Source: Chloroflexota bacterium
Lineage (GTDB): Bacteria > Chloroflexota > Dehalococcoidia > UBA2247 > JAXHVC01
Assembly: GCA_034189315.1 (NCBI GenBank)
Contig: JAXHVC010000224.1
Location: 281 to 64,280 of the forward strand
Reading direction: 5' to 3'
Length of the DNA stretch: 64,000 nt
The position numbers were made by a program, and so were the translations under genes. Position 1 is the stretch's first letter; each line of letters begins with the position of its first letter. Below are positions 8,224 through 42,291 of the stretch, piece after piece. The notes under the pieces are model-generated. The model searched no databases. It was not told the DNA's origin and worked only from the letters and a program-made list of their open reading frames with translations.

Positions 8224-8351
8224 GCGAGCACGAAATCCGTGAGGGACACGGTTTATTAGGAAAAGAAACCTCCAGTTTCTTAGGAGAGATTTCCCTACAA
8301 ATGTATTAAAAGAATGCCAGACTAAGGACTAGTCGGCATGATTGCTTCACC
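8224..8351. repeat. Copy 2 of the duplicated ~120-nt element, spanning the stop codon and 3'UTR of the GH130 fusion gene
   Basis: Homologous to 5694-5806. In minus orientation it forms the hairpin AGAAAC-UGGAG-GUUUCU followed by UUUUCC, a weak intrinsic-terminator-like structure just after the stop at 8322. Confidence 0.55.
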
Positions 8352-11300: not shown

Positions 11301-11966
11301 GGTCTCGCTGAACCAGGCACCCGGGCTATTTAGGCAAAGATCCAGACTTGACCTGGACATGGCAAATTCTATTCCAAGAGGATCATGTATCTTCACTCCA
11401 TAGACACCTGCAATTAAAGGGTAAGCTAGATGTCTAGCAGTTGGCACCTCAAAGGAATGCCTATTGAATCTCGATACAGCAAGTCCATAATCATCATTGC
11501 GTATTGGAGATAGAATTCGATGGACCCAATCAGGGCTCATTCCCTTGTTTCCAGAGTTTGAGCTCTTCCTGCTTATCAGGTCAGCCTCAAATATGGCAAT
11601 ATCGGAACGTAGCAAGCTTGCTATCTCCATAATGGCTCGCAGACTCCACCCCTTACCACTCACCTTCTTACTGTTCATCAGGAATGAAATCCGCGATATA
11701 TTTCCTTCACGAGGAAGACCTCGTATCACCTCCAAGGTCGTACTTCCAGCTGCATCTCCAACACATACCACCACACACTTGTTGTCTGGATAGTACTTCC
11801 TTAGTCCATCCTCCACAGTAAGCAGTAAACCTGCAATAGTATCCATCTCTTTCCAAAATGGGATACCCACTACAATGTCTGCAGTTCCAATTGCTTCTAT
11901 CTCTTTTAATGCATTTCGCAAGGATTCGCGATATTCCTCCTCAACAGGGGAACTCTTACTTGTCAT
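8322..11966 (-). CDS. Multidomain protein: N-terminal nucleotide-sugar glycosyltransferase-like (GT-A) region, central unknown region, C-terminal GH130 (beta-mannoside phosphorylase/DUF377) domain
   Basis: The C-terminal ~330 aa carry GH130 hallmarks (GWLLIYHGVD, VVFTCGAV, IIVYYGAADTVICAA). The N-terminus (DIVVGIPFWKEMDTIA...CVGDAAGSTT) resembles GpgS/MGS-type GT-A synthases. The start is trimmed to the Met at 11966, which has a GGGGGTGA Shine-Dalgarno; the six-frame ORF extends to 12065. Confidence 0.7.
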   Translation of the reverse strand: MTSKSSPVEEEYRESLRNALKEIEAIGTADIVVGIPFWKEMDTIAGLLLTVEDGLRKYYPDNKCVVVCVGDAAGSTTLEVIRGLPREGNISRISFLMNSKKVSGKGWSLRAIMEIASLLRSDIAIFEADLISRKSSNSGNKGMSPDWVHRILSPIRNDDYGLAVSRFNRHSFEVPTARHLAYPLIAGVYGVKIHDPLGIEFAMSRSSLDLCLNSPGAWFSETRGLGTDLWMVTCAITGDVKICEVDMGVRLHKSSPGKMEVSLREVAKTLFECIVLHSDWWQERGHILRTVDEIVDTERRGPIESRLNSIWLMARYRKGFNRYDHTVCERILPPDLCKTLEALAETDDEKFSLNTETWARTVYHFACAFNFASDIDKEDLLSAFVPIYDGRLASFANQVRFLESRLSRIPHDEAKPIVQSQAEGWIEDQVSEFVRQRSEFMTRWTEKEEAFLPMLPNVTCREFVPGVALIMPHEITAPNGEIARVDVVHREIVGHLKEGFEHFVHGTLGVPYGADTREVVYEVKHFMRDLEVDLDEALLSGDVTMQDGVDSIVDAVFSRLPYEQGYMLQPDVISWLLRRYPPSNLLLKLGPITLSKLEKVYAPNDILALAGLSEEMEHRARIWAWIRSNARPDHFTLDSLKPLVVDYDRFPLLLESRGVSEVDMLSGRIMVTNLPKGVGGEFPKTRYLTLVCKNIVEGERFGEMWRIFAEEKKEFGRKVINSIEGHWGREPLSAHNIFEDKNQRILVERLRMMVQDMVHHEKFKHLASMLKHATDCYHIAWTTTGGKFIPCSCWSWSSYSARGGRGVPTPLSVHVERDWASREFLLRLFEVIGGDENRLDGKIVELMGQGRESEDLSYIVLPLGRETTKVLPAQPLAMEQPEAGVLSRVKENPILQPISDHTWESKYVLNCGAVIIKGITYLLYRAYGEDSISRIGLAESSDGIHISERLPYPVYGPAVEEESKGCEDPRIVVIDNRVYMLYTAFSHIAAQIAIASIDIGDFLNHRWDRWERHGQPFPGYADKDAVLFPEKFNGKYVMYHRIEPSVWISYSETIDAPWSRKGHKILTGPRSGVTWDGVKVGAGAQPLKTKYGWLLIYHGVDFAHVYRLGVMVVDLNDPAKIIYRSPNAILEPLATYEVGEHGKSWIPNVVFTCGAVARQDKELLDVGDEIIVYYGAADTVICAATAKVGDLIPEEIRMKTGVDIIGEAIMPTSP

Positions 11967-12190
11967 CCATATCACCCCCAATGTACATAGTAGACTTCTT
12001 TGCTGTATTATCAGGGTTGAGTCACGCCAATAAAAAGGGGGGCAAGTTAAGAAACAAGCCCCCACACGCCTATATATCTAAGTTTATACTATAAGAATAT
12101 GCGAAAATAGACTTAAGAAAACGCTTAGCTATGAGACCCACCACTGGGAGTCACATTACTGATATATTTAAAACAAACGATAGAATAGAA

Positions 12191-18719: not shown

Positions 18720-20078
18720 ATGATCATGGGGACAGAAAAAGTATCCCAGTATATCACTAATACCACTTACGATAAAATCCCCCCAGATGCGTTAGCTAGT
18801 GCAAAGCAAGCAATACTAGACTGCCTCGGAGTTACATTAGCAGGGTGCGATGATCCTGGTAGTAAGATCGTCACTGAATTCGCAAAAGAACAAGGTGGCA
18901 TAGCTGAAGCAGGTGTCATAGGGGGTGGTTTCAAAGTCCCAGCAGTAGAGGCTGCATGGGTAAACGGAACAATCGCCCATGCACTGGATTATGACGACTA
19001 TTCCACAGCATTCATGGCACACCCTACTGTCGCACTTCTCCCTGCAGCACTGGCTGTATCAGAGAAATCCCATCTATCAGGAAAAGACGTATTGCTTGCA
19101 TATATCGTGGGATTCGAAGTGGGGGCTGCTGTAGCACCCATTTGTGTTATGCAAAGCTATCTGCTGGGATGGCATTCGACTTCGGTAATGGGAACAATCG
19201 GTGCCGTCGCATCTTGTGCAAAACTGCTGAACCTTAGCGTTGAACAGACAAGCATGGCACTAGGAATTGCTTCATCCATGGCCAATGGTATGAAGGAAAA
19301 CTTTGGGACAATGACCAAACCACTACATGCTGGTAATGCCGCACGTAATGGTGTATTGGCAGCACAGCTTTCACAAAAGGGATTCACTGCATCCGAGAAC
19401 ATACTAGAAGGGCAACAAGGATTTTGTAGAATATTCGCTGGTGGAGCGGAGATCGATGGAGCAAAGATTGGAGAGTCAATAGGTCAACAATACACTATCA
19501 TTGGTGGTCTATCTATGAAACCCTATCCATCTTGTGCAGGTACGCATGCTACTATAGATAGTGCCGTTTATCTTCATGGACAACGAGAGATTAGAGCTGA
19601 GGATATCGAAGAGATCGAGATGAGGACAAGCCCAGGTGTGGCCACCGCATGCATTCACTCCAATCCTCAGACTGGATTGGAAGGTAAGTTCAGCAATCAG
19701 TATTGTGTGGCAAGGGGGCTTCTGGACGGAGAAGTTGGGCTCAGACATTTCACCGATGATATGGTGAAAGACCCCGTAATACAATCCCTAGTCCAAAAGG
19801 CAAAATATGCACATACCCCAGAGATGGGAGCATCCTTCGGTTCAGAAGTGGTTGTGAAATTCCGTGACGGTTCTACGGTATCCTATAAAGTCGATAGCCC
19901 AAAAGGTTTTATTACTAATCCAGTAACCATCGACGACACTATTGTCAAGTATAAGGATTGTGCTTCGTTAGCCCTTTCGAGTGATGACGCACAACGTTCT
20001 TTAGACCTTATCATGAACCTAGAGGACCTAGCAGACATAGGCACCTTGATGGATATTCTTGCTAAAAAGGCTAAGTAG
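18720..20078 (+). CDS. MmgE/PrpD-family protein (2-methylcitrate dehydratase-like)
   Basis: 452-aa ORF. The N-terminus ...YDKIPPDALASAKQAILDCLGVTLAG matches the PrpD fold. Confidence 0.85.
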   Translation: MIMGTEKVSQYITNTTYDKIPPDALASAKQAILDCLGVTLAGCDDPGSKIVTEFAKEQGGIAEAGVIGGGFKVPAVEAAWVNGTIAHALDYDDYSTAFMAHPTVALLPAALAVSEKSHLSGKDVLLAYIVGFEVGAAVAPICVMQSYLLGWHSTSVMGTIGAVASCAKLLNLSVEQTSMALGIASSMANGMKENFGTMTKPLHAGNAARNGVLAAQLSQKGFTASENILEGQQGFCRIFAGGAEIDGAKIGESIGQQYTIIGGLSMKPYPSCAGTHATIDSAVYLHGQREIRAEDIEEIEMRTSPGVATACIHSNPQTGLEGKFSNQYCVARGLLDGEVGLRHFTDDMVKDPVIQSLVQKAKYAHTPEMGASFGSEVVVKFRDGSTVSYKVDSPKGFITNPVTIDDTIVKYKDCASLALSSDDAQRSLDLIMNLEDLADIGTLMDILAKKAK

Positions 20079-20151
20079 CCTGCCACCTAGACCTAATGGC
20101 CAGGCTGACGTTCAGAGTATCTAGCAACGCTTGATGGAGGGGAGATAGAAA

Positions 20152-21747
20152 ATGGATGAAATAATGGAACAGAGAATCGCGGAGCTTAGGCGAGTCAAAG
20201 AAAGTGCCCTTCAGGGTGGTGGGCCAGCAAAAATCGCACGTCAAAAAGAACGCGGTAAGCTTCTTGCTCGTGAAAGACTTGAGATGCTTCTAGACCCAGG
20301 AAGCTTCAATGAATCGCTAATGCTCACAGGGCACATCCAGGGAGACGCAGGTGATGGCATTGTAGCTGGGTATGGGACAATTAATGGCAGACAGGTCTGC
20401 GTCTTTTCTCAGGATGCGACGATCCAGGGAGGATCAATTGGTAACCTCCATGGCTTTAAAATGACCAGAACCATTGAGAGAGCGTTAGAAATGAGAGTCC
20501 CTCTCATTTCACTAGGTGATTCACCTGGCTATCGAAATCCCAAAATGTCTCAACTACTTAGCAGTCAAGGGGCCGGGGGAATGGATGTCGGTGAAGAAAT
20601 GACTATGGCTACAGCTATAGGCGAAAAGAACATGTTCTTTGCCAACGTTCAAGCATCTGGCGTGATACCTCAAATCTCAGCTGTTCTCGGTAGTTGTGGT
20701 GGAGTATCTGTATACTCACCAGCACTCATGGATTTTATATTCATGGTAGATAGTATTAGCCATATGTTTATCACGGGACCTCGGATTGTTAAATCTGTAA
20801 TGGCAGAAGACCTCACTATGGAAGAGCTCGGTGGAACAAAGATACATTCCAAGCTCTCAGGTGTTTGTGATCGCAGGTTTAAAACCGAAGAAGAATGCTT
20901 CGCGAACATAAAGAAACTCTTGTCCTACCTCCCATCCAATTGTGATGAATCTCCTCCATGGGTTAACACAGGTGATGATCCCAATAGGGTTGACGAAACG
21001 ATCCAAGACATCATGCCTGCCGACGCTAACAAACCCTTTGATATGCACCTCATAATTAAACGTATAGTAGATAATGGCGATTTCTATGAAATCAAGCCAG
21101 AGTTTGCAGGGGAGATGATAGTAGGTTTGGGCAGGCTAAATGGCCATGTCGTCGGAATCATTGCAAACCAACCTATGGTACGAGCAGGCAGCTTGACAGT
21201 AGATAGTTCGACCAAAGAAGCTCGGTTTATGAGGTTCTGTGATTGCTTCAACATCCCACTTGTGATGTTGGTTGATACTCCAGCCTACCAACCCGGATCT
21301 CAGCAAGAACAAGCAGGAATTATTCGACATGGAGCAAAGGTGCTCTATGCCCTCTGCGAAGCCACCGTTCCCAGAATCAGCGTAATATTACGCAAAGCCT
21401 ATGGAGGAGGCAACTTAGGAATGGGCTCTATACCAGGCATGGGAACCGACTTCATGTATTCATGGCCAACAGCGGAGATGGGCGTTATGGGAGCAGAACA
21501 AAGCGTAGACCTGTTCTTTGGCCCACAAATTGCCGCAGCACCAGATCCCGTTGCATTCAAACAGCAAATGGTAGATATGTATAAAGGCGTGATGGGTAAT
21601 CCCATATTTATGGCATCCTTCAACCCCTTCACCGAGGATGTTATCGAGCCTAAGGACACCAGAAGGATCTTGATAAGATCATTAGAGATCCTAAAGTCAA
21701 AAAAGATCTCTCGCCAACCCAAACGCCATGGCAATATACCCCTATAA
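20152..21747 (+). CDS. Acyl-CoA carboxyltransferase subunit (propionyl-CoA carboxylase beta / methylmalonyl-CoA decarboxylase alpha family)
   Basis: 531-aa ORF with two carboxyltransferase crotonase-like halves (ERLEMLLDPGSF...; ...ANQPMVRAGSL...AKVLYA). Confidence 0.85.
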   Translation: MDEIMEQRIAELRRVKESALQGGGPAKIARQKERGKLLARERLEMLLDPGSFNESLMLTGHIQGDAGDGIVAGYGTINGRQVCVFSQDATIQGGSIGNLHGFKMTRTIERALEMRVPLISLGDSPGYRNPKMSQLLSSQGAGGMDVGEEMTMATAIGEKNMFFANVQASGVIPQISAVLGSCGGVSVYSPALMDFIFMVDSISHMFITGPRIVKSVMAEDLTMEELGGTKIHSKLSGVCDRRFKTEEECFANIKKLLSYLPSNCDESPPWVNTGDDPNRVDETIQDIMPADANKPFDMHLIIKRIVDNGDFYEIKPEFAGEMIVGLGRLNGHVVGIIANQPMVRAGSLTVDSSTKEARFMRFCDCFNIPLVMLVDTPAYQPGSQQEQAGIIRHGAKVLYALCEATVPRISVILRKAYGGGNLGMGSIPGMGTDFMYSWPTAEMGVMGAEQSVDLFFGPQIAAAPDPVAFKQQMVDMYKGVMGNPIFMASFNPFTEDVIEPKDTRRILIRSLEILKSKKISRQPKRHGNIPL

Positions 21748-21805
21748 TTGGTGGACATCCTAGGAGCAATTTCCATCTAGTGACTTTGGCTGAAAGAAGA
21801 GAGCT

Positions 21806-22615
21806 TTGACTATGGATTTTGAGACTTTGTTCCTTAAGAAGGAAAATCATATTGCGACAATTACGTTGAATCGTCCTGCAAGACGGAATGCTCTTAATCT
21901 CCAGATGATCCAAGATGTTGTGGCAGCCTTAGATGATGTTCAGGCAGACGACAGCCTGAGAGTTCTAATAATAACCGGAGCGGGGAAAGGATTCTGCTCC
22001 GGTGCAGACATAGATCCTGCATCTATGGGTAGCGGGACCCCAGGACAAATGAACATTGAGACAATGCGTAGATCACCTATGATTCAATCTATGCATAAAC
22101 TCATTCTTGGTTTATACAAAGTGAAGATACCTACTATAGCCATGGTGAACGGATCCTGTGTTGGAGCTGGTTTCGAGATTGCACTCTTATGCGATATGAG
22201 GGTGGGATCAGAACATTCCAAGTTCATGTGTGGATTCGTCAAATTAGGGTTATATCCATTCTCAGGCACATGGTTATACCCTAGAGTCATGGGGCTAGCC
22301 AAAGCATACGAAATACTCTATACAGGTGATACTCTTGATTCCCAAGAGGCTTTCCGGATTGGTGTTCTTAACAAACTAGTCCCTGCCGATAGGTTAGAAG
22401 AAGAGACTATGACTCTTGCCAATAAGATAGCTAAAGGTCCACCTATAGTTATCCGGTTTATGAAGTCTCAAATACGACAGGCCGTTACCATGGACCTTGA
22501 GACAACCCTAGATGTAGCAGCTACCTATGAAGGGGTTATTTCCACTACAAGCGATCTTATAGAAGGCATCAGCGCACGCTTCGAAAATAGGGAACCGCAT
22601 TTCCAGGATATGTAG
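21806..22615 (+). CDS. Enoyl-CoA hydratase/isomerase (crotonase) family protein
   Basis: 269-aa ORF with ATITLNRPARRNAL and ITGAGKGFCSGADI (oxyanion-hole region). Confidence 0.85.
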   Translation: MTMDFETLFLKKENHIATITLNRPARRNALNLQMIQDVVAALDDVQADDSLRVLIITGAGKGFCSGADIDPASMGSGTPGQMNIETMRRSPMIQSMHKLILGLYKVKIPTIAMVNGSCVGAGFEIALLCDMRVGSEHSKFMCGFVKLGLYPFSGTWLYPRVMGLAKAYEILYTGDTLDSQEAFRIGVLNKLVPADRLEEETMTLANKIAKGPPIVIRFMKSQIRQAVTMDLETTLDVAATYEGVISTTSDLIEGISARFENREPHFQDM

Positions 22616-22906: not shown

Positions 22907-23140
22907 TCAGGGAACAGTCTTTCTATCAACTATAGGAGGTTTCTGTCCCGATAATTCCTGTACTTGCCGAGGATCTCCCTTGCCTATATATCGAGGGCAA
23001 TCACCAACATCCATCGATGACTGGGTTGGCCGAGACATCCAATATTCGCATCTCTCATCCTTCTCCCTCGTGACACAATCCCCCTTTGTAGGATCGTCTG
23101 GCAGAGGAAAGAAACTCTTACATTCTTCACAAGTTGCCAT
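22907..23140 (-). CDS. Small Cys-rich protein (77 aa), last gene of the radical SAM operon
   Basis: MATCEECKSF...GDCVTREKDERCEYW...GDCPRY with 5 Cys. AAGGGGA Shine-Dalgarno upstream. The start lies 6 nt after the preceding ORF's stop. Confidence 0.4.
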   Translation of the reverse strand: MATCEECKSFFPLPDDPTKGDCVTREKDERCEYWMSRPTQSSMDVGDCPRYIGKGDPRQVQELSGQKPPIVDRKTVP

Positions 23141-23146
23141 TATCTA

Positions 23147-23356
23147 TCATTCCCCTTTCTTTATTTTTTTTCCTAAGGCTTTCAAGCCCCAGGCACCTGC
23201 ATCGCCAACCTTCTCGTCCTCGGCAAATTCATCACACTCTGTCAGCTTCTCACACTTTGGACACTTCCGATAGCTCCTACGGAAGCCCGCTTCTACAGGT
23301 CCAATATACTTGAACTCTGCTCGAGATGCTTCATGGCCACACATAGCACATTTCAT
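23147..23356 (-). CDS. Small zinc-ribbon protein (69 aa)
   Basis: MKCAMCGH...RKCPKCEKLTEC: two CxxC pairs and a Lys-rich tail. A strong RBS (GGAGTTGAGGAAAG-ATG) sits 54 nt after the rSAM stop. Confidence 0.45.
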   Translation of the reverse strand: MKCAMCGHEASRAEFKYIGPVEAGFRRSYRKCPKCEKLTECDEFAEDEKVGDAGAWGLKALGKKIKKGE

Positions 23357-23410
23357 CTTTCCTCAACTCCCACACATGCTCTCTTAACAGAATACAAGCC
23401 AGCTCCCATC

Positions 23411-24370
23411 CTAGCCTCCCACAGTAACTTCTGCGGCATAGGGTTCAAATATCCCAAGTAGTTCAAGTAGCCGTTCCTCGTTATAACCTTCTCCTGCAGG
23501 GAATGGATAGTCTATACCAAACAACCTGTACTTAGCTCCAGCCCAAGGATGATATGGTAATAAATCAACACCTTGTATACTTTCGCCCAATGATTGCACA
23601 AATTGTGCTGTTGCAAGCAGGTTTTCATTAGTATCATTGATACCCGTAATGATCGGCACACGTATCCTGATCTTCTTCTTTCTCTCCGCCACTTTCTTAA
23701 GATTGTCCAGAATCAACTCATTACCTACCCCTGACCAATCTTTATGAGCAGCTGAATCCATATGCTTAATATCCCATAGGAAAAAGTCAATATAATCGAT
23801 CATTTTTTCCAAGGTTTCCCAAGGAGCATAACCACTAGTGTCTAAACAAGTATTGATTTCCCTTGCTTGGGCCGCTTGCAGCAAGCTCAACGTGAAATCT
23901 GGCTGAGCTAACGGATCTCCACCAGAAAGTGTCATCCCCCCACCAGAGTTCTTATAGAAAGGCTTATCCTTTTCTACCTCAGTAATTACTTCCCCCACCG
24001 TTACATATCTACCGTAAACCACCAGAGCCCTATAACGGCAAAAATCCGTACACTGTAAACAATACGTACAACGCCCCTTGTCCACACTTGGCTTGGTTGG
24101 TTCAGGTAGAGTAATCGCACCGGACGGACACTTTTCTATACAATCTCCACAACCAATGCAATTTGGATGGTATGGAAATACCTCTGGATTACGCCTAACA
24201 CCTTCCGGATTGTGACACCACCGGCAGTTCAGTACACATCCCTTGAGAAATACATTTGTTCGAATCCCAGGACCATCACAAAGAGAATAGAACTGTATAT
24301 TGGTTATTATCCCTATTTTGTTGTCTAGTTCATCAATTCTCGATGCCACGAGGATGCACCTCCATAGCAA
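23411..24370 (-). CDS. Glycyl-radical-enzyme-activase-like radical SAM protein (PFL-AE family with two [4Fe-4S] ferredoxin inserts)
   Basis: CDGPGIRTNVFLKGCVLNCRWCHNPEG (GPG.R plus CxxxCxxC), then CIGCGDCIEKCP and CTYCLQCTDFC ferredoxin motifs. 319 aa. The N-terminal 18 aa may not be translated. Confidence 0.8.
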   Translation of the reverse strand: MLWRCILVASRIDELDNKIGIITNIQFYSLCDGPGIRTNVFLKGCVLNCRWCHNPEGVRRNPEVFPYHPNCIGCGDCIEKCPSGAITLPEPTKPSVDKGRCTYCLQCTDFCRYRALVVYGRYVTVGEVITEVEKDKPFYKNSGGGMTLSGGDPLAQPDFTLSLLQAAQAREINTCLDTSGYAPWETLEKMIDYIDFFLWDIKHMDSAAHKDWSGVGNELILDNLKKVAERKKKIRIRVPIITGINDTNENLLATAQFVQSLGESIQGVDLLPYHPWAGAKYRLFGIDYPFPAGEGYNEERLLELLGIFEPYAAEVTVGG

Positions 24371-24513
24371 TCACCATAACTCCAATAGTCATGATAATAC
24401 AAACAACTCAGTCAAATGACAATAGAACTAGCCTTTGTAATAAAGTGTATCGGATATTACAAACCTAAAATCAGCCTAACGACTTTTATAAGGAGTTGAA
24501 TTCGTGAGGGTAT

Positions 24514-25458
24514 TTAGCCGCCTATAGTAGTCTCAATGCCATAAGATTGGAGGATTTCTACCACCGGGCCAACATCTTCTTTGGCCATACTCTTGATATC
24601 AGCATACTGCCAATCCAAACCCAACTGTTCATACTTGGATGCACAGTAATTATGGAACGGCAACACATCAACCGCCTCAACACTGGAACCCAACTCTTGG
24701 GCAAACTCCCCTAGGGCTTCAATATTTTCATCCGAATCATTAAACCCTGGAACAAGTGGCAATCGTAATCGCAATGTTGCGCCCTTAGCCGCAAGCCTTC
24801 TGGCATTTTCTAGTACTAGATCATTCGGCACGCCAGTTGCCTGGCGATGCATTTCAGAGTTCATGTGTTTGATGTCATAGAGGAATAGATCAACGTATTC
24901 CGAAAGTTTTTCAAGGTCTTCCCACTTACAATAACCACAGGTATCAACACATGTGTTAATACCATACTGTCTCACGCCCTTTAGTATCTCGATAACATCA
25001 TCTAGCCGTGTCGTAGGCTCCCCTCCTGATATCGTCACACCACCACCGGAATTAATATAGAAACTAAAGTCCTTTGCTGCTTCCTTTACTAATTCCTCCA
25101 CACTCCAAGGCTGACTTGCAGGAACAAGAGCATCATAAATACAAGCATCAACACACTTCATACACCGAGTGCAACGATCTCTATCAATCTTCTGATAATT
25201 ACTGCCCTCTTGTTGTGACTCTTCCGGGGGTATGGGTGCATATACCGCTTGCTCATCGCAAACCTCATAACAACGCCCACACTGAACGCACTTCATCCTC
25301 TTATAATATATTTCTTGGTAGGAATGAATACACTCTGGGTTATGACACCACCAACACCTTAGGGGACAACCCTTGATGAATACCGTAGTCCGTATTCCAG
25401 GGCCATCCTGAATCGACCACCCTTGAACATTGGTAATTAACATCGAGTGTTCGGACAT
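24514..25458 (-). CDS. Second glycyl-radical-enzyme-activase-like radical SAM protein (paralog)
   Basis: QDGPGIRTTVFIKGCPLRCWWCHNPEC, then CVQCGRCYEVCD and CTRCMKCVDACIYDA. 314 aa. Confidence 0.8.
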   Translation of the reverse strand: MSEHSMLITNVQGWSIQDGPGIRTTVFIKGCPLRCWWCHNPECIHSYQEIYYKRMKCVQCGRCYEVCDEQAVYAPIPPEESQQEGSNYQKIDRDRCTRCMKCVDACIYDALVPASQPWSVEELVKEAAKDFSFYINSGGGVTISGGEPTTRLDDVIEILKGVRQYGINTCVDTCGYCKWEDLEKLSEYVDLFLYDIKHMNSEMHRQATGVPNDLVLENARRLAAKGATLRLRLPLVPGFNDSDENIEALGEFAQELGSSVEAVDVLPFHNYCASKYEQLGLDWQYADIKSMAKEDVGPVVEILQSYGIETTIGG

Positions 25459-35941: not shown

Positions 35942-36166
35942 CTATTTCACCCGTTGCCACCAATCATCAATCAGCAGTCTAAAACGTGACTCCGATCAGC
36001 AGCCCTTTCTATTTTAACCATCAACAATTGGAACCCAAACGTTTTTATGGTATAATTCACATATTAATTATAGTATACTTACTCACTCGAAAGCATATCT
36101 ATTTTATTGTAAACTTTATTTATGCAAACTTGGGATATGAGTAGGTTGGTAAAAGGCAGTTAAGTT

Positions 36167-37816
36167 ATGGCAGGTGAACAGAAGCTTACCTCCGACACTA
36201 CAAAAGACCTATACGGAAGCTACTCTGAATACTGGCGCAGAAACAAATCAGCCCTTGAGCCATTGGAATTAGCTAATGCATTGAAGGCCTTGCGAAAAGT
36301 CGTGGGGTACGTTGGAGCCAACTGTAAGACGGTGGAATGGGCTGGTATGTCCGAACCAGGGGAAGGCAAGATTCTGATCGACGTCAGTCCTTCCGAAGGC
36401 AAGGTTCCTATTCCAGGGGACAGGATGGATGTCATGGTGGGACAAGCCATCCACGAGGCTCTACATTGCCGTGAATGGAGCGATTGGATTTGGTTAGATG
36501 TCGAGAGTAAGAAGAAAGAACTTTTTCCCAGATACAAGAGTTATCTAAAACTATTAGTAGACGCAGGGGAAGATGTTTATGTTGACCACATAGCTAAGGA
36601 TAATGTACTGGGGAACTATGTCACTGTCACCAGAGCATGGTACAAACCCAAAGGGTCCTTAGATAACTCCTCCTATCCAAATACAGATGGATTGATTCGC
36701 CTATGGAGAAGAATCGCTCTATACAAAGAAGCACCGGAAGAGTATCTTCCTGAATATGAAGAGCCATTGAAAATCCTGATCGATGCAGGGAACCAACTCA
36801 TCGAAGGCGGTCAAGGTATCAGCTCCGTAGCCGAACGTGCAAGTTGTAGGAGTGAGGTATACGTTAGCACATGGGATAAGATCAGCCCATTTCTAACATT
36901 ATGGGATCGGCAGGAAACCGAAAGAATTATGGCCACTCGCAAGGCGAAGAGAGCCGAGCGCTCATTAGTGTACGAAGGTTACACCGAAGATAGTCTATCA
37001 CCCCAGCTTGCACAAGAGGTGGCAGAGATTCTAGCTGCCACTGGGGAAGATATGACCCCTTTGCTGGAAAGCGAGTTGACCAAACCGGAGGACAAAGCCC
37101 TAAGAACCATATTCAAAGATGCAACCATACCATATACACCAAATCTAGACTATACTCTAGTAGCACGGCTGCGGCGTATTTTCCAGGCCCAATGGGAAAG
37201 GACAGTACGCACCGATCGAGGACTAATCAGCGGTAGAGTTGATGGAAGAAGGCTCTACCGAGTAAGTACCACTGGAAGGGTGTTCCGCAATAAAGCCCAC
37301 CCCTTGGTGAACGTTTGGAGTATAACAGTTCTTCTTGACGCATCCATATCAATGGGGATGGCAGGAACAGACTGGCTACATGCGCAGAATACCTGCGCCG
37401 CACTTTGGAAGGCTCTTCAAGGTTATAGAAACAAACTCGATATATTGGCCTATCACGAAGACCACGATGTGTGCCGTGTATCCAAGCTATTCCACCATAG
37501 GCAGTTTTTTACAGTGACCCCTTGCGGTAGAACACCATCAGGACAGGCAGTAATGATTGCCGCAATGAGAATGTCCGAGGCAAAAAGGAAGCTATTGATT
37601 CATATAACCGATGGTGAGTGTAACTGTGGGAGTAGTGTACAGGAAGCATTAAATTACTGCCAAAGGAACTCTATTGAACTTGTGACACTAGGATTCGGCC
37701 TCGACAAGGAACTCGTCAAGGAACAATATGGAGAAAGCAGTCAATTGGTTGACTCAATAAAACAAGTACCTGAAGCACTAGAAATCGTTCTAAAGAAAAA
37801 GCTGTTGAGGGAGTGA
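36167..37816 (+). CDS. vWA-domain protein with an N-terminal HExxH (zincin-like) region, paralog 1
   Basis: C-terminal vWA with a MIDAS motif (LLDASISMG...ITDGECN). N-region has AIHEALH and a downstream AGEDVYVD. The same motifs are conserved in the 38906-40606 paralog. Confidence 0.7.
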   Translation: MAGEQKLTSDTTKDLYGSYSEYWRRNKSALEPLELANALKALRKVVGYVGANCKTVEWAGMSEPGEGKILIDVSPSEGKVPIPGDRMDVMVGQAIHEALHCREWSDWIWLDVESKKKELFPRYKSYLKLLVDAGEDVYVDHIAKDNVLGNYVTVTRAWYKPKGSLDNSSYPNTDGLIRLWRRIALYKEAPEEYLPEYEEPLKILIDAGNQLIEGGQGISSVAERASCRSEVYVSTWDKISPFLTLWDRQETERIMATRKAKRAERSLVYEGYTEDSLSPQLAQEVAEILAATGEDMTPLLESELTKPEDKALRTIFKDATIPYTPNLDYTLVARLRRIFQAQWERTVRTDRGLISGRVDGRRLYRVSTTGRVFRNKAHPLVNVWSITVLLDASISMGMAGTDWLHAQNTCAALWKALQGYRNKLDILAYHEDHDVCRVSKLFHHRQFFTVTPCGRTPSGQAVMIAAMRMSEAKRKLLIHITDGECNCGSSVQEALNYCQRNSIELVTLGFGLDKELVKEQYGESSQLVDSIKQVPEALEIVLKKKLLRE

Positions 37817-37827
37817 GGTAAATAAGC

Positions 37828-38673
37828 ATGATAAAGCACAGCAAAGAGATACAAGTTCCGCAGGCAGATCCCTATTTCTTCCTGCCTGAGGAGATCATTG
37901 GGGTGCTTGATAAACTAGAGAAGCTCTCAAAAAAACACCCTGTTAATATTCTGGTTACCGGCAAACAAGGCTGTGGGAAGTCCTCTCTCGTAAGACAGTT
38001 TTCCGCGCGGTACGAACATCCAATGTCCTCCTTCCAAATCGGATTATTATCCGAGCCAGGGCAGCTATTTGGAGAACAGAGGTTAAAAGAAGGAGAGACC
38101 TATTATCAACAATTCCTATTTCCTCAAGCCATCTCTACTCCTGGCTGTGTTCTGCACCTTGAGGAATTGAACCGTCCAGAACATCCAAAAGCGCTCAACG
38201 AGCTGTTCTCTGTATTATCCGAAGATAGATGTATCTGGGTGGATGAACTTGGGCTAGTATCTGTAGCAGAAAGAGTGCTTTTCTTTGCCACTCTGAATGA
38301 GGGAGAGGAATTCACTGGGATTGATCAGCTTGACGCCGCATTAAGAGACAGATTCTATGTTATTCAGATGGATTACCTTCCTTGGGATGTAGAACAGCAA
38401 GTGCTAATGCTCAAAACAGGCGTTGAGGAGGAGCAAGCAGTCAATATCCTAAGGGTGATAAACAAACTAAGAAGCAATACACAGGTTCCAATTGCAGTCT
38501 CAACAAGACATAGCCTAATGATTGCGGAATTGGTAGTCTTAGGAGCCTCTATTCGAGAAGCAATTATTTTCAGCCTGCAGCTAGATAAGGATATGCTCGA
38601 ATCACTCCTTCTATCCCTCCATCTGGAAACAGGAGATACTAGGGTCGCTAAGAGCGCTTATCGCATTTTCTAG
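37828..38673 (+). CDS. MoxR/CbbQ-class AAA+ ATPase
   Basis: Walker A ILVTGKQGCGKSSL, a Walker B-like VLHLEELNR and an arginine-finger region RDRFYV. 281 aa. Confidence 0.75.
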   Translation: MIKHSKEIQVPQADPYFFLPEEIIGVLDKLEKLSKKHPVNILVTGKQGCGKSSLVRQFSARYEHPMSSFQIGLLSEPGQLFGEQRLKEGETYYQQFLFPQAISTPGCVLHLEELNRPEHPKALNELFSVLSEDRCIWVDELGLVSVAERVLFFATLNEGEEFTGIDQLDAALRDRFYVIQMDYLPWDVEQQVLMLKTGVEEEQAVNILRVINKLRSNTQVPIAVSTRHSLMIAELVVLGASIREAIIFSLQLDKDMLESLLLSLHLETGDTRVAKSAYRIF

Positions 38674-38905
38674 TCTTGTTCCTACGTTCAATCATCATAT
38701 AGGCCTGCCAGAATAGTCATCTGCCAGGGAGAGGGGGATGGTCACACTGTAAGATCTAACGCTCGGTCCCTGGCAGTTGTTGTTTTTTCAAATCTCTTCT
38801 GTACCGAATACAATCATATGAGTACTGTTATCATTGTTGTGCTCATTAGATAAAGCCAACTTCTCGACCGTTTCCCCCTACGCATTCTACAGGAAAAAAG
38901 GAGCC

Positions 38906-40606
38906 ATGAATTATTCAGAATACTGGAGAGTCAACAAGTCATGCGTTGACCACACAGAACTAGCCAATGCCCTAAGAAGTCTTCGTAAAGTCGTAGGTGA
39001 GGTTGGTGTAGATGCCGATGCTGTATGGTCAGGGGTTCCTATTGACGATAACCCAAGAATCGAATTGCCATTGCTTCTAGCAATGGGGGACTACCCTATA
39101 CCACCAGAAAGGATGGATGTTCTAACGGGAACTGCTATTCATGAAGCACTACATATTAGAGAGAATACACAAAGGGCAGTTGGCTACCTTTCTCAGCTGT
39201 TCCCACGGATGAAGGATAAAACTCCTCTAATGAGGCTGGCACAAGCAGGGGAAGATGTACATGTGAATGGTGTGGCTCTCCAGACAGGACTACTCGGGTG
39301 TTATGTACAAAAGTCAAGACAATGGTGGAGAGATAATCTTAGCTGGGACTTCACAGCAGGACGTCCTAATCTAGAAGGATTACTAGGGATATGGACAGAC
39401 ATTGTATTGGATGTTGTATTCTCGATCATTCCCGCAAATGAATTGCCAGGAATCAAGGACATATTTGCAGAGAGAGAACCAGGAGACCTGCAGTCTACGT
39501 TAGACATTCTCTGTTTATATAACTCAACTGCTCTATTCACTATCTATGGTATCCTCTTACGCATGCCACAAAGTTACGAAGAACCCTTGGAGCACCTTTT
39601 GCTCAACACACCTCAAATTATAGATTCGGATGCAGAAATACGGGCCATATTCTATATGGAGTTCTGGAACAGATGGGAAAAGACCTTCAATGATTGGCAA
39701 TTGGCCATAGAACAGGCAGGACTATCCGAATCCAGCAGCATGTTATCCTCAAGTTCACTTATGGATGATGAGCAAGTACCTCCCGAGATAACAGCCGCGG
39801 TTGCAGCGGCACTCACGGGAGAATCCAAAACCATCACCAGACAGATCGAAGCAACACTGAAAGCGTTAGGAGGTGAACATCAGCGATACAGGCTATTTCC
39901 AACCCTATTCGAGGATGCCACTATGGCATGCAAGGCTGTGCCTCATCAGAGGTTGGTTCGGCGATTAAGCGAGGTGTTTCATCTGCAACAAGAACAGGCA
40001 GCTAGGATCAATCGAGGTCTTCGCAGCGGCAAGTTGGATAAAAGAAGGATGTATAGGGTTCATACGAACGGCCTTATATTTAAGAAGAAAGAGTACTTCC
40101 CGGAGAACAACCGATGGGATATTACTTTGCTTATCGATGCTTCTAGTTCAGTGATATGGCATTGGCAGTTGATCGAAAGCGTTTATGTGGCGATGGCAGA
40201 AGCACTGAAAAGAAACAATAGCAGGTTGGAGATATTGGCATATAAGGAAGCTGCTGGCAACTGTCTAGTGAGTCGTCTCTTCTACGGTAACAGTCTCTTC
40301 ACTACAACAACCGGTGGCAGTACACCCTCCGGCGAAGCTATTATGGCAGCAGCATTGTCCATGCCTCGCAGTCAGAGGCGATTCGTTGTTCATGTGACTG
40401 ATGGTCTTTGGAATTCTGGTATTGATGTATGGTATGCAATAGAGCACTGTAAGAGAGAAGGTATTGATTTAGTTACACTTGGTTGTGGCGATGCCATTAG
40501 AGCTTTGGAATTGCAGTATGGAAAGAGCTTCGAAGTTATCGAATACATTGAGCAACTCCCCAAAGCTATGGAAGATCTATTCCGTAAGAAAATGTTGGGT
40601 CGATAG
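38906..40606 (+). CDS. vWA-domain protein with an N-terminal HExxH (zincin-like) region, paralog 2
   Basis: Aligns with paralog 1 (YSEYWRVNKS...ELANALRSLRKVVG; TAIHEALH; AGEDVHVN; RRMYRV; LLIDASSSV...VTDGLWN). The start is set at the Met aligning with paralog 1; the six-frame ORF begins at 38834. Confidence 0.68.
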   Translation: MNYSEYWRVNKSCVDHTELANALRSLRKVVGEVGVDADAVWSGVPIDDNPRIELPLLLAMGDYPIPPERMDVLTGTAIHEALHIRENTQRAVGYLSQLFPRMKDKTPLMRLAQAGEDVHVNGVALQTGLLGCYVQKSRQWWRDNLSWDFTAGRPNLEGLLGIWTDIVLDVVFSIIPANELPGIKDIFAEREPGDLQSTLDILCLYNSTALFTIYGILLRMPQSYEEPLEHLLLNTPQIIDSDAEIRAIFYMEFWNRWEKTFNDWQLAIEQAGLSESSSMLSSSSLMDDEQVPPEITAAVAAALTGESKTITRQIEATLKALGGEHQRYRLFPTLFEDATMACKAVPHQRLVRRLSEVFHLQQEQAARINRGLRSGKLDKRRMYRVHTNGLIFKKKEYFPENNRWDITLLIDASSSVIWHWQLIESVYVAMAEALKRNNSRLEILAYKEAAGNCLVSRLFYGNSLFTTTTGGSTPSGEAIMAAALSMPRSQRRFVVHVTDGLWNSGIDVWYAIEHCKREGIDLVTLGCGDAIRALELQYGKSFEVIEYIEQLPKAMEDLFRKKMLGR

Positions 40607-40738
40607 TAGTTAAAGGCGACATCTCATAATATAACGAAGTTTTATGGTTCAAGATCAGCATTTCCAAAAGCATGCATGTAGTATAGGGAATAGTTTTCAT
40701 ATTATGGCTATTACACAAAACAACGAGGGGGTTGAATA

Positions 40739-41014
40739 GTGTCAGTTACGGTCCATATTTCAGCGCCTCTTCGGCGATTTACATCGGGTGAATCAGAGGT
40801 AGAAATGACAGCCAACAATGTATTGGATTGTATTGATGAGCTAGAAGCTCGATTCCCTGGAATAAGAGGGAATATCTTAAATGAACATAGCCAACGCCAT
40901 AAGTTCGTGAATATATATTTAAATGGTGACGATGTCCGTTCACTCCAGGGTCTTTCTACAACCATTCGTCCTGGTGATGAAATCAGTATTGTGCCTGCTA
41001 TTGCTGGAGGTTAG
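40739..41014 (+). CDS. MoaD/ThiS/CysO-family ubiquitin-like sulfur-carrier protein (C-terminal Gly-Gly)
   Basis: 91-aa ORF ending ...GDEISIVPAIAGG*. GTG start after a GAGGGGG Shine-Dalgarno. Confidence 0.7.
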   Translation: MSVTVHISAPLRRFTSGESEVEMTANNVLDCIDELEARFPGIRGNILNEHSQRHKFVNIYLNGDDVRSLQGLSTTIRPGDEISIVPAIAGG

Positions 41015-41089
41015 TGCTATCGTAATAGATCTGCTCTGCATGATTATTGAGTCTAAATTTACTATATTTATGCAAAGGAGGTGGACAAC

Positions 41090-41626
41090 ATGATCATTGA
41101 TGACCCTCAATCATTCTTTATCTACGTTTTCCACCCAGACTCCCTGTCCGATTCCGGTGCTTATATCGCCTATCAAGGTAATAGGTTAACAAACAAAGAG
41201 TACATGGAACACTGGGGCAAATGGATTGTTATGGATGAACGTGAGAATCTTGATGCCCTAGCAAAAAAGCTCAATCCATATGTAGAAAGTAGACACATCC
41301 CTTGTATTAAATACGATCGTTATCCACCACCCATGTTCGAATTGGGAGTTTGTGTCATGAGTGTCTTCTGCGATGACAGGGCTCGTGATGAGGTTTGGGA
41401 GATCCTATCCCAGCATGGAGTCAAAATGCAGGTATGGATATACGATAAGTTTACTATAGAAATGTGGCAACCTGGCGGCGCTCTTCTTGAGACTTGGATA
41501 TCCTCTCATGATCTTGATGAACATCAAGCAGAAGAAATCAGATCAGATGTTCAAATGAGGATGAATCAGACATACGGTTCTGAGGATGACACATGCACTG
41601 GATGGACGCAGTGTTATCTTCCTTAG
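41090..41626 (+). CDS. Hypothetical protein (178 aa) downstream of the ThiS-like gene
   Basis: ORF with an AAAGGAGGTG Shine-Dalgarno 6 nt before the second ATG. No recognisable motif (FHPDSLSDSGAYIAYQGN...). Confidence 0.5.
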   Translation: MIIDDPQSFFIYVFHPDSLSDSGAYIAYQGNRLTNKEYMEHWGKWIVMDERENLDALAKKLNPYVESRHIPCIKYDRYPPPMFELGVCVMSVFCDDRARDEVWEILSQHGVKMQVWIYDKFTIEMWQPGGALLETWISSHDLDEHQAEEIRSDVQMRMNQTYGSEDDTCTGWTQCYLP

Positions 41627-41783
41627 TTTATGTTAAGACCTCAGACTCCTTATGAATACAACCTCTTCAATATATTTTGTTAGAAGTTGATTGTTTTACA
41701 GATTCTTGCTTGGCCTGCTACGAGTATATCACAGTAGGCCTCCCGCAGAGTCTATTTTAACCCTCTTTATAACTATTAATAAC

Positions 41784-41813
41784 AAGGGTTCCGAGTAAGA
41801 TCTCGGAACCCTT
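41784..41813. terminator. Perfect 12-bp stem hairpin (aagggttccgag-taagat-ctcggaaccctt) downstream of rpsI
   Basis: In minus orientation it is followed by an AU-rich tract. It lies in a convergent intergenic region. Confidence 0.5.
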
Positions 41814-41889
41814 ACTTATCTGAATCCCTATTAACAGTGCCAACCAACACACACAAATGGCACCTACTACCGCTTTCCCTAAATCAATA

Positions 41890-42291
41890 CTAACGCTTGG
41901 TGTACTGAGGCGCTTTACGAGCACCCTTCAATCCATACTTCTTTCGTTCCTTAACTCTAGGATCACGAGTTAGTAATCCTTCTTTTCTGAGCACAGACTT
42001 GTTTTCTTCATCCTCTCTTACCAGAGCTCGTGCAATACCATGTCTAATAGCTTCCGCCTGCCCCGTAACTCCTCCACCAGTCACTTTTACCACAGCGTTG
42101 TATTTACCTATTGCTCCTACTGCTTGAAGCGGACTGAATACTCTACTTCGTAATGCCATCGAAGGTACGTACTCGTCCAACAGCTTGTCATTCACAACTA
42201 TATTTCCTTTTCCGGGAAACAGCTTGACTTGAGCAACAGCTGTCTTTCTTCTCCCAGTACCATGCCAATATGCTTGGTCAGACATTATCAC
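41890..42291 (-). CDS. rpsI: 30S ribosomal protein S9
   Basis: C-terminal ...[25 protein letters not shown]. Confidence 0.95.

What the first reader, a model, noticed from the sequence alone, without database searches (positions are those of the whole stretch)
36167..40606. MoxR-like AAA+ ATPase sandwiched between two paralogous vWA proteins whose N-domains share an HExxH...E zincin-like motif
MoxR/vWA pairs (CobS/T, NorQ/D, CbbQ/O, RavA/ViaA) normally contain one vWA partner. Here two ~550-590-aa paralogs flank the ATPase. The paralogs are collinear over their whole length: YSEYWR(R/V)NKS, ANAL(K/R)(A/S)LRKVVG, R(R/K)(L/M)YRV, and MIDAS LLDAS(I/S)S. Both keep AIHEALH followed ~35 aa later by AGEDV(Y/H)V. 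This spacing is typical of gluzincin metallopeptidases (HExxH plus a downstream Glu). A vWA/AAA+ chaperone-like module coupled to a possible metalloprotease domain is not a described housekeeping system. It sits between ogt and a ThiS-like gene, away from any cobalamin, nitric-oxide reductase or RuBisCO genes.
Basis: partly seen in the sequence, partly recalled or inferred. Interest (0 to 1): 0.72.

Follow-up and report, generated by a model that had tools for sequence, protein, structure and literature searches.

The report
BssE/BssF-type chaperone genes, two adaptors
These genes are a compact version of the poorly understood ATPase-plus-adaptor "chaperone" set that accompanies the oxygen-sensitive enzymes anaerobic bacteria use to attack hydrocarbons; the protease-like motif is real and ancient, but no fold match supports a protease and many relatives have lost part of it.

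Summary
A MoxR (AAA_5/CbbQ_C) ATPase lies between two full-length paralogous vWA proteins (33% identity, E 4e-86). Both carry HEALH, a downstream invariant Glu and a MIDAS motif.

The genes belong to the BssE/BssF (AssE/AssF)-type pair found in fumarate-adding glycyl-radical-enzyme (benzyl-/alkylsuccinate synthase) clusters. 60 of 78 related genome loci carry such markers. The window itself encodes two activases, beta- and gamma-like small subunits and alkane-pathway genes 11-17 kb upstream.

The downstream ThiS-like gene and a 181-aa orphan (DUF181) are conserved partners. In relatives they come with a ThiF-like E1 and SPASM radical-SAM genes.

The C-terminal half is a NorD-type finger plus MIDAS vWA (Foldseek E 6e-11). 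The N-domain models confidently but matches no solved fold, zincin or otherwise. HExxH...E is invariant in a phage-associated outer shell. It is incomplete in 31-36% of the core family, which always keeps D88, E97 and E135.

Most likely this is a NorQD-like ATP-driven remodeller of the hydrocarbon-activating enzyme, with an ancestral metal or acidic site of unproven function. I rate it a new variant of a known kind, of moderate interest.

The parts
36167..37816 (+). vWA-1 (549 aa). It has an N-terminal helical domain with D88, HEALH 96-100 (nt 36452-36466) and E135 (in AGEDV, nt 36563-36577). A linker follows, then a NorD-type finger RGLISGRVDGRRLYRV (nt 37217-37264) and a MIDAS vWA domain (DASIS, nt 37337-37351).
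37828..38673 (+). MoxR-class AAA+ ATPase (281 aa), AAA_5 plus CbbQ_C. Walker A is GKQGCGKS (nt 37960-37983). Walker B is HLEELNR (nt 38155-38175). It is 60-71% identical to the BssE/AssE-position ATPases in relatives.
38903..40606 (+). vWA-2 (567 aa from the ATG at 38903; the ORF is open from the TTG at 38834). It has the same architecture as vWA-1: HEALH at nt 39140-39154, AGEDV at 39245-39259, finger at 40013-40060, MIDAS DASSS at 40136-40150.
40739..41014 (+). ThiS/MoaD/SAMP1-like ubiquitin-fold protein (91 aa) with a C-terminal Gly-Gly. It is a conserved neighbour of MoxR-vWA pairs in relatives.
41081..41626 (+). DUF181: a 181-aa orphan protein with no Pfam, NCBIfam or PADLOC match. It belongs to a small, tightly conserved family (45 clusters, 44-69% identity). 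In the 13 loci here that show both genes it lies immediately downstream of the ThiS-like gene.
24514..25458 (-). Glycyl-radical-enzyme activase (radical SAM), 45% identical to a Desulfatibacillum AssD-type activase.
23411..24370 (-). Second glycyl-radical-enzyme activase, 53% identical to the second Desulfatibacillum activase.
23147..23356 (-). Cys-rich 69-aa ORF similar to the 73-aa small (beta-type) subunit of alkylsuccinate synthase clusters.
22907..23140 (-). Cys-rich 77-aa ORF similar to BssC/TutF (gamma-type small subunit); 48% identity over 48 aa, E 1.7e-10.
18720..22615 (+). MmgE/PrpD, carboxyltransferase and enoyl-CoA hydratase genes. The same accessory families occur in alkylsuccinate clusters of relatives (L003, L033).

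Best explanation
The cassette is a compact, lineage-specific version of the BssE/BssF (AssE/AssF)-type MoxR AAA+ / vWA accessory system of fumarate-adding glycyl-radical enzymes (benzyl-, alkyl- and related succinate synthases). The host is a Chloroflexota MAG.

Shown here:
- Family membership by sequence and synteny.
- A NorD-type finger and MIDAS vWA domain in both paralogs.
- A CbbQ/NorQ-type ATPase.
- Fumarate-addition genes in the same window.
- Conserved linkage to a ThiS-like Ubl and DUF181.

Inferred by analogy with the NorQ-NorD cryo-EM mechanism (PMC13036017): the ATPase forms a hexamer that grips the vWA finger in its pore and the vWA C-terminus on its rim. The adaptor holds a client through its MIDAS site and its N-terminal domain. 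ATP-driven twisting pries the client open.

The most likely client is the hydrocarbon-activating enzyme or its small Fe-S subunits. Remodelling would allow assembly, activase access or cofactor insertion. Two adaptors sharing one motor would give two attachment points or two clients. One of them is probably tied to the Ubl/DUF181 (E1 and SPASM radical-SAM in relatives) branch.

The HExxH...E site, with the more strictly conserved D88/E97/E135 acidic triad, is an ancestral N-domain site. It is more likely to bind a metal or ligand than to be an obligatory peptidase centre.
For: Sequence family: 172 homologs, annotated only as VWA or hypothetical, mostly from anaerobic hydrocarbon degraders.

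Synteny: in Desulfatibacillum the homolog follows the activases, PFL-like Gly_radical, BssC_TutF, small ORFs and MoxR. 60 of 78 genome loci carry fumarate-addition markers, and 39 of 49 loci of at least 12 kb do. MoxR is directly upstream of the vWA gene in 73 of 81 cases.

The window itself: two activases, beta- and gamma-like ORFs, PrpD, carboxyltransferase and ECH.

Structure: the full model has pLDDT 89.3. Its best PDB matches are the NorD vWA domain in NorQD complexes (E 6e-11), then the Rea1/MDN1 MIDAS domain. The pre-vWA finger and vWA start match CobT. Plasmid NorD genes match the same half.

ATPase: AAA_5 plus CbbQ_C, with conserved Walker A and B across 86 family members.

MIDAS DxSxS is essentially invariant.

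Two vWA clades, A (GRE-adjacent) and B (ThiS/DUF181-adjacent), separate in 39 of 40 bootstraps. ThiS and DUF181 are conserved next to the pair, with ThiF and SPASM radical-SAM genes in relatives.

Literature: bssE and bssF are conserved and required but of unknown function; BssE is AAA+ and BssF is in the vWA superfamily (PMC5874301, PMC7285207).
Against: No catalytic alpha subunit (AssA/BssA) is encoded in the 64-kb window. The cassette is separated from the activase and small-subunit genes by housekeeping genes (miaB-like, pfkB, clpP, tig, dnaE, ogt).

Some members, for example Actinomycetota L005, L061 and L067, show no fumarate-addition genes within 10 kb. The client therefore need not be the same everywhere.

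Direct sequence comparison with experimentally studied BssF or BssE from Thauera, Azoarcus or Aromatoleum could not be made.

The window's two paralogs do not map onto clades A and B. They form their own small clade with L008 (31 of 40 bootstraps).

The remodelling mechanism is transferred from NorQD. The N-domain shows no fold similarity to the NorD N-domain.
Confidence: 0.68

Rival explanations
1. The N-domains are active gluzincin-type metallopeptidases. The AAA+/vWA module delivers or unfolds a substrate, for example an oxygen-damaged or misassembled glycyl-radical enzyme, for cleavage.
For: HExxH lies on a long helix and an invariant Glu on a later helix, with a preceding helix and beta-hairpin. 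That order is typical of zincins. H, E, H and E are invariant in 77 outer-shell relatives at 19% mean identity. The motif Glu (E97), which is the catalytic base in zincins, is kept in 118 of 121 core members. Both window copies are intact. Peptidase domains fused to vWA partners of MoxR are known from conflict systems (PMC7159879).
Confidence: 0.15
2. The cassette is primarily the motor and adaptor arm of a ubiquitin-like or sulfur-carrier maturation pathway (ThiS-like Ubl, MoeB/UbaA-like E1, DUF181, SPASM radical-SAM enzymes). The vWA MIDAS site binds the Ubl, as Rea1/MDN1-MIDAS binds UBL domains. The pathway installs or repairs a sulfur-containing or radical-SAM-made modification or cofactor in a client.
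For: The ThiS-like gene and DUF181 are adjacent to the vWA gene in the window and in 15 of 78 loci. Units such as ThiS-DUF181-MoxR-vWA-rSAM-ThiF or MoxR-vWA-ThiF-ThiS-DUF181-rSAM-rSAM recur. L009 interleaves three SPASM rSAM paralogs with one MoxR and two vWA genes. L086 links DUF181 with rSAM genes and a cysteine-desulfurase-like gene. The E1 and Ubl resemble the SAMP/UbaA and MoaD/MoeB families. Rea1/MDN1 MIDAS-UBL complexes are among the best structural matches for the vWA half.
Against: The window itself has no ThiF or SPASM rSAM homolog. Most clade-A pairs have no Ubl or DUF181 nearby. The MIDAS-UBL similarity is generic to vWA domains. No interaction or chemistry has been shown. This reading is compatible with the best explanation rather than exclusive of it.
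Confidence: 0.2
3. A known MoxR-vWA function under another name: cobaltochelatase (CobS/CobT), NO-reductase activation (NorQ/NorD), Rubisco activase (CbbQ/CbbO), or a mobile or phage-derived conflict system.
For: The finger and vWA match CobT and NorD. PHROG hits are to phage 'CobT' and 'porphyrin biosynthesis' families. Outer-shell relatives lie in phage-like contigs.
Against: All NCBIfam scores are far below the cut-offs for CobS, CobT and GvpN. There is no match to CobT-type or NorD N-domain folds. No cobN, norB or cbbL appears in any Pfam-annotated context. PADLOC gives no hit for either vWA protein. The setting is a chromosomal catabolic and housekeeping one.
Confidence: 0.03

Closest known systems
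BssE/BssF of benzylsuccinate synthase operons (AssE/AssF in alkylsuccinate synthase clusters)
   Same: A MoxR-type AAA+ gene directly followed by a ~550-590-aa vWA-superfamily gene inside fumarate-adding glycyl-radical-enzyme clusters. The window family occupies exactly this position in Desulfatibacillum, Desulfosarcina alkanivorans, Smithella and Peptococcaceae loci. The literature describes both as conserved, required and of unknown function (PMC5874301, PMC7285207).
   Different: In the window one ATPase is flanked by two vWA paralogs and fused to a ThiS-like/DUF181 pair. The cassette lies 11 kb from the activase and small-subunit genes, with no alpha subunit on the contig. No direct alignment to the experimentally studied proteobacterial BssF/BssE was possible.
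NorQ/NorD (Fe_B insertion into cNOR; cryo-EM structures 9qh6, 9qhd-9qhg)
   Same: A CbbQ/NorQ-type ATPase (AAA_5 plus CbbQ_C, GCGK[ST] P-loop). The vWA domain with its preceding finger is the best structural match (Foldseek E 6e-11, about 240-276 aligned columns). The overall layout is N-domain, linker, finger, MIDAS vWA.
   Different: No norCB genes are present. The N-domain shows no fold similarity to anything solved, including the NorD N-domain. This family carries the HExxH...E signature.
CobS/CobT cobaltochelatase motor, and phage 'CobS/CobT-like' pairs
   Same: Sequence similarity over the finger motif (RGLxSGKxDxRRLYR versus LEEGYLDSARLVR) and the vWA start. Outer-shell relatives share an acidic linker. 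PHROG hits point to the same families.
   Different: There is no cobN and no CobT Pfam N-domain. The cultured phage ICP2 gp41 'CobT' aligns only over the finger and vWA. The HExxH shell occurs in uncultured phage-like contigs.
Rea1/MDN1 MIDAS domain bound to UBL domains (6qtb, 8ql1)
   Same: An AAA_5-family motor plus a MIDAS domain. These are structural matches for the vWA half (E 3e-6 to 1e-5). A ubiquitin-fold protein is encoded next door.
   Different: In Rea1/MDN1 the motor and the MIDAS domain are one giant polypeptide, and the UBL is a domain of a ribosome-assembly factor. Here the Ubl is a free ThiS/MoaD-like protein ending in GG, and no interaction has been shown.
Zincin-vWA proteins paired with MoxR (Pfam DUF2201_N + DUF2201; recalled from memory) and peptidase-vWA effectors of vWA-MoxR conflict systems (PMC7159879)
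   Same: The theme of a peptidase-like N-terminal domain fused to a vWA partner of a MoxR ATPase, often with degenerate catalytic residues.
   Different: No DUF2201_N match was found. Only 4 of 77 shell proteins touch the DUF2201 vWA model, at E about 0.01. The genomic context is also different.

Membership tests
BssE/BssF (AssE/AssF)-type accessory pair | A MoxR AAA+ gene immediately upstream of a ~550-590-aa vWA gene | tested here: met
   In the window MoxR lies 230 nt upstream of vWA-2 and 12 nt downstream of vWA-1. In relatives MoxR is directly upstream in 73 of 81 cases.
BssE/BssF (AssE/AssF)-type accessory pair | Location in a fumarate-adding glycyl-radical-enzyme cluster (alpha, beta, gamma subunits and activase) | tested here: inconclusive
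   Relatives: 60 of 78 loci carry such markers. Window: two activases and beta/gamma-like ORFs lie 11-13 kb away, but there is no alpha subunit in 64 kb.
BssE/BssF (AssE/AssF)-type accessory pair | Sequence orthology to the experimentally studied BssE/BssF of Thauera, Azoarcus or Aromatoleum | not tested
   Those sequences were not retrievable with the tools. The link rests on synteny in ass-type clusters and on published descriptions (PMC5874301, PMC7285207).
BssE/BssF (AssE/AssF)-type accessory pair | Genetic requirement for active enzyme | not testable with these tools
   Needs genetics in a cultured degrader.
NorQ/NorD-type MoxR-vWA chaperone | vWA domain with a complete MIDAS (DxSxS...T...D) preceded by a pore-inserting finger | tested here: met
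   D391, S395, T456 and D482 are invariant and S393 nearly so. Foldseek to the NorD vWA-plus-finger chain gives E 6e-11.
NorQ/NorD-type MoxR-vWA chaperone | CbbQ/NorQ-class ATPase (AAA_5 plus CbbQ_C) | tested here: met
   AAA_5 E 1.4e-16. CbbQ_C scores 22.8 bits against a cut-off of 20.6.
NorQ/NorD-type MoxR-vWA chaperone | Linkage to norCB, and a NorD-type N-domain | tested here: not met
   No nor genes appear in any context. The N-domain has no PDB fold match.
Gluzincin metallopeptidase (Peptidase_MA clan) | HExxH on a helix plus a downstream Glu ligand on a later helix | tested here: met
   HEALH 96-100 lies in helix 84-102 and E135 in helix 121-143. The downstream Glu is present in 121 of 121 members.
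Gluzincin metallopeptidase (Peptidase_MA clan) | Zincin fold recognisable by structure comparison | tested here: not met
Gluzincin metallopeptidase (Peptidase_MA clan) | Metal ligands invariant across the family | tested here: inconclusive
   Invariant in the 77 outer-shell proteins. Incomplete in 33 of 92 and 37 of 121 core members.
Gluzincin metallopeptidase (Peptidase_MA clan) | Ligands converge on one metal site; Zn is bound; peptidase activity | not testable with these tools
CobS/CobT cobaltochelatase | CobT/CobS family models above cut-off, and cobN linkage | tested here: not met
   TIGR01650 CobS scores 17.9 bits against a cut-off of 558. TIGR02442 scores 11.9 against 779. No cobN appears in any context.
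Anti-phage defence vWA-MoxR systems | Match to known defence-system models, or a defence-island context | tested here: not met
   PADLOC gives no hit for either vWA protein and only P-loop-level hits for the ATPase.

The most novel reading that the evidence does not exclude
The HExxH-N-domain/vWA adaptors, their MoxR motor, the ThiS-like Ubl, its E1, DUF181 and the SPASM radical-SAM enzymes together form a previously undescribed maturation or repair machine for fumarate-adding glycyl-radical enzymes. The motor and adaptors pry the enzyme or its Fe-S subunits open. The Ubl/thiocarboxylate and radical-SAM branch then installs or restores a cofactor or modification. The conserved D88/HExxH/E135 site would act as a metal-handling (or proteolytic) centre.
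Probability: 0.2. Interest if true: 0.8.

Novelty: new variant of a known kind. Interest (0 to 1): 0.55.

Why it matters
Fumarate-adding glycyl-radical enzymes start anaerobic degradation of toluene, alkanes and other hydrocarbons. Their accessory genes bssE and bssF are required, but their function has stayed unknown (PMC5874301, PMC7285207).

This analysis gives BssF-type proteins a concrete domain model: an orphan N-domain with a conserved acidic/HExxH site, a NorD-like finger and a MIDAS vWA domain. It also provides a testable NorQD-like mechanism.

Two further results follow. Clusters often carry two adaptor lineages, and one of them is tied to a Ubl/E1/DUF181/SPASM radical-SAM set that is itself undescribed. 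The same N-domain signature is invariant in a large shell of relatives, and the two shell contexts examined are phage-like contigs. That points to an ancestral activity worth testing biochemically.

For the window itself, the result is mainly a correct annotation rather than a new kind of system.

Tried and rejected
- **Family libraries:** Pfam, NCBIfam, PADLOC and PHROGs on the vWA proteins gave only weak vWA or CobT-like C-terminal hits and nothing for the N-domain.
- **PDB profile search, core family:** only the CobT finger/vWA and generic vWA domains.
- **PDB profile search, outer shell:** the CobT hit extends to position 136, but that stretch is carried by the low-complexity acidic linker (bias 18.5). 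I did not accept it as N-domain homology.
- **N-domain alignment from locus DNA:** rejected by the structure server. I solved this by using the window N-domain with full-length database rows.
- **AFDB50 fold search:** the library was unavailable.
- **Search for annotated bssF in plasmids:** only NorD-type C-terminal matches.
- **Phage records:** the shell protein P0199 had no match. The window protein hits Vibrio phage ICP2 'CobT' only over the finger and vWA.
- **Coordinated RExxR:** I first read the His substitutions as a coordinated RExxR. The census shows simultaneous RR in only 3-5 sequences, so I dropped that argument.
- **Clade assignment:** I tried to assign vWA-1 and vWA-2 to clades A and B. 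They instead group with each other and with L008.
- **Promoter/terminator scan:** at chance level overall. Only one good promoter-like site lies upstream of vWA-1, at 36028-36056.
- **Cobaltochelatase, NorD, CbbO and defence-system readings:** rejected for lack of family scores and linked genes.

Full report
**1. Observation.**

The three ORFs exist as described. vWA-1 runs 36167-37816 (549 aa) and the ATPase 37828-38673 (281 aa). vWA-2 is open from a TTG at 38834 to 40606. An ATG at 38903 preceded by AAGGAG is the more likely start, giving 567 aa.

The two vWA proteins align over their whole length at 33% identity, E 4e-86. The ATPase is AAA_5 (E 1.4e-16) with a CbbQ_C tail. The upstream gene is ogt. 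The downstream gene is a ThiS/MoaD/SAMP1-like protein ending in Gly-Gly.

An identical protein in the database is annotated as a hypothetical protein of a Chloroflexota MAG.

**2. What family is it?**

Pfam, NCBIfam, PADLOC and PHROGs give nothing for the N-terminal 300 residues and only weak vWA or CobT-like hits for the C-terminal half.

A database search found 172 homologs, nearly all unannotated. They come mainly from Desulfobacterota, Syntrophales/Smithella, Peptococcaceae, Dehalococcoidia/Chloroflexota and Actinomycetota.

Genomic context was decisive. In Desulfatibacillum aliphaticivorans the homolog follows two radical-SAM activases, a PFL-like glycyl-radical enzyme, a BssC/TutF small subunit, small ORFs and a MoxR ATPase. 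A second locus shows the same neighbourhood.

A scan of species-representative genomes returned 78 loci. They include Desulfosarcina alkanivorans, Desulfatibacillum alkenivorans, Smithella and Peptococcaceae SCADC. tblastn profiling gave these counts:
- 60 of 78 loci carry at least one fumarate-addition marker.
- 39 of the 49 loci of at least 12 kb do.
- MoxR lies directly upstream of the vWA gene in 73 of 81 cases.

This is the position of bssE/bssF (assE/assF). The literature describes BssE as AAA+ and BssF (580 aa) as a vWA-superfamily protein. [quoted passage not shown] Their function is unknown (PMC5874301, PMC7285207; see also PMC7180275, PMC12583861).

**3. The window has its own fumarate-addition genes.**

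The minus strand at 22.9-25.5 kb encodes two activases, 45% and 53% identical to the Desulfatibacillum pair. It also encodes a Cys-rich beta-like ORF and a BssC-like gamma ORF.

Next to them on the plus strand are MmgE/PrpD, a carboxyltransferase and an enoyl-CoA hydratase. The same families occur in alkylsuccinate clusters of relatives.

No catalytic alpha subunit is present in the 64 kb. The cassette is separated from these genes by housekeeping genes.

**4.

The ThiS-like gene and the following 181-aa ORF (DUF181) are 42% and 47% identical to an adjacent gene pair in L003. They recur next to MoxR-vWA pairs in many loci.

DUF181 is a small, tightly conserved orphan family of 45 clusters at 44-69% identity. 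Looking outward from DUF181 homologs gave three layouts:
- L088: MoxR-vWA-ThiF-ThiS-DUF181-rSAM-rSAM. This is a close relative, with MoxR 89%, vWA-2 60% and DUF181 69% identical to the window.
- L087: ThiS-DUF181-MoxR-vWA-rSAM-ThiF.
- L086: DUF181-rSAM-rSAM-cysteine-desulfurase-like.

The radical-SAM proteins are SPASM-type (AhbD/NirJ/TIGR04053-like). The E1 is MoeB/UbaA-like. All score far below family cut-offs. The window has no ThiF or SPASM rSAM homolog.

**5. Two adaptor lineages.**

A tree of 92 vWA copies rooted with outer-shell sequences separates two clades in 39 of 40 bootstraps.
- Clade A sits after the enzyme subunits, a 112-aa ORF and MoxR.
- Clade B is linked to ThiS/DUF181, ThiF and rSAM.

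Many clusters carry one pair of each. The window's vWA-1 and vWA-2 group with each other and with another Chloroflexota copy, L008, in 31 of 40 bootstraps. That small clade sits ambiguously between A and B. They therefore look like a lineage-specific duplication sharing a single ATPase. L009 is a second example of one MoxR with two vWA genes.

**6. Structure.**

The full-length model is confident (pLDDT 89.3). Its best PDB matches are the NorD vWA-plus-finger chain in the 2026 NorQ-NorD complexes (E 6e-11 to 9e-7). The Rea1/MDN1 MIDAS domain follows, and then generic vWA domains.

Profile searches link the finger motif (RGLxSGKxDxRRLYR) and the vWA start to CobT. Plasmid-borne NorD genes match the same half.

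The N-domain alone (residues 1-272) models at pLDDT 91.7 and pTM 0.87. Its elements in order are:
- helix 31-49
- a beta-hairpin, 55-58 and 68-71
- helix 84-102, carrying HEALH
- helix 105-115
- helix 121-143, carrying E135
- four more helices

**7. The motif.**

In 121 core homologs the columns read H 99, E 118, H 92 and downstream E 121.

An exhaustive profile search found 4,874 relatives, 213 of them below 1e-30. The outer shell of 550-770-aa proteins keeps H, E, H, the downstream E and the MIDAS residues invariant across 77 sequences at 19% mean identity. The two shell members whose contexts I examined lie in phage-like contigs, each directly after an AAA_5 gene.

In the core family 33 of 92 and 37 of 121 members lack one or both His, mostly as single losses. 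Clade B is the most degenerate. D88 and E135 are retained in all of these members and E97 in nearly all (33/33 and 35/37).

The site is therefore ancestral and functional somewhere. In the fumarate-addition clade, however, the acidic triad is constrained more strongly than the His pair. That argues against an obligatory zincin peptidase activity there. No Peptidase_MA-clan Pfam signal was found, even at E <= 1.

**8. Mechanism.**

Shown: a CbbQ/NorQ-type ATPase with conserved Walker A (GxQGCGKS) and a family-specific Walker B (hLEEINR). Also shown: NorD-type finger and MIDAS adaptors, and conserved linkage to fumarate-adding enzymes and to a Ubl/DUF181 set.

Inferred from NorQD (PMC13036017): the finger inserts into the hexamer pore and the adaptor C-terminus docks on the ring. 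The client is held by the MIDAS site and the N-domain, and ATP-driven twisting opens it. The likely client is the hydrocarbon-activating enzyme or its Fe-S subunits.

What the N-domain site does remains open. It could bind a metal, hand a metal over, or carry out proteolysis. So does the role of the Ubl/E1/DUF181/rSAM branch.

**9. Verdict.**

The cassette is a new variant of a known but uncharacterised kind, the BssE/BssF-type MoxR-vWA accessory system. It is not a new class of protease-chaperone. Interest is moderate. The value lies in a concrete domain model and testable mechanism for BssF-type proteins. It also lies in the undescribed Ubl/DUF181/SPASM radical-SAM linkage and in an invariant HExxH...E signature in a large outer shell of relatives, the two examined members of which lie in phage-like contigs.

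Noticed in passing
window 22907-25458 (- strand): Two glycyl-radical activase genes plus beta- and gamma-like small-subunit ORFs of a fumarate-adding enzyme stand without any catalytic alpha subunit in the whole 64-kb window.
   Followed up: partly
L088:218-7401, compared with window 37828-41900: A close relative (MoxR 89% identical) has a ThiF-like E1 between vWA-2 and ThiS, and two SPASM radical-SAM genes after DUF181. The window lacks all three and runs straight into rpsI, which suggests loss or relocation.
   Followed up: partly
L009:6874-14788: Three paralogous SPASM radical-SAM genes are interleaved with one MoxR and two vWA genes, in the order rSAM-MoxR-vWA-rSAM-vWA-rSAM.
   Followed up: no
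L003:9052-11728; also L033 and L063: A MeaB-like GTPase gene, not a MoxR gene, sits directly upstream of a clade-A vWA gene and overlaps it, next to methylmalonyl-CoA mutase genes.
   Followed up: no
L089:7012-9923 and L090:6872-10262: Outer-shell relatives with an invariant HExxH...E N-domain and a MIDAS vWA lie in phage-like contigs, directly after an AAA_5 ATPase. The cultured phage ICP2 'CobT' (L091) shares only the finger and vWA.
   Followed up: partly
window 38155-38175 (MoxR Walker B): The whole ATPase family has hLEEINR, with Glu in place of the usual Walker B Asp, and a Cys in the P-loop (GxQGCGKS).
   Followed up: partly
window 8322-12065 (- strand): In a 1247-aa ORF, only the C-terminal ~290 residues match a known family (GH130 mannooligosaccharide phosphorylase). 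The first ~940 residues are unannotated.
   Followed up: no
L040, L049, L064, L076, L079, L082 (downstream of the vWA gene): An enoyl-CoA hydratase and a SIR2-family gene repeatedly follow the clade-A vWA gene. Conserved unannotated small ORFs of 112, 119 and 136 aa also recur in these clusters.
   Followed up: no
window 38674-38902: There is a 230-nt gap between the ATPase gene and vWA-2, with a weak promoter-like site (38785-38814). vWA-1 and MoxR are only 12 nt apart. The cassette may therefore be two transcription units, vWA-1-MoxR and vWA-2-ThiS-DUF181.
   Followed up: partly
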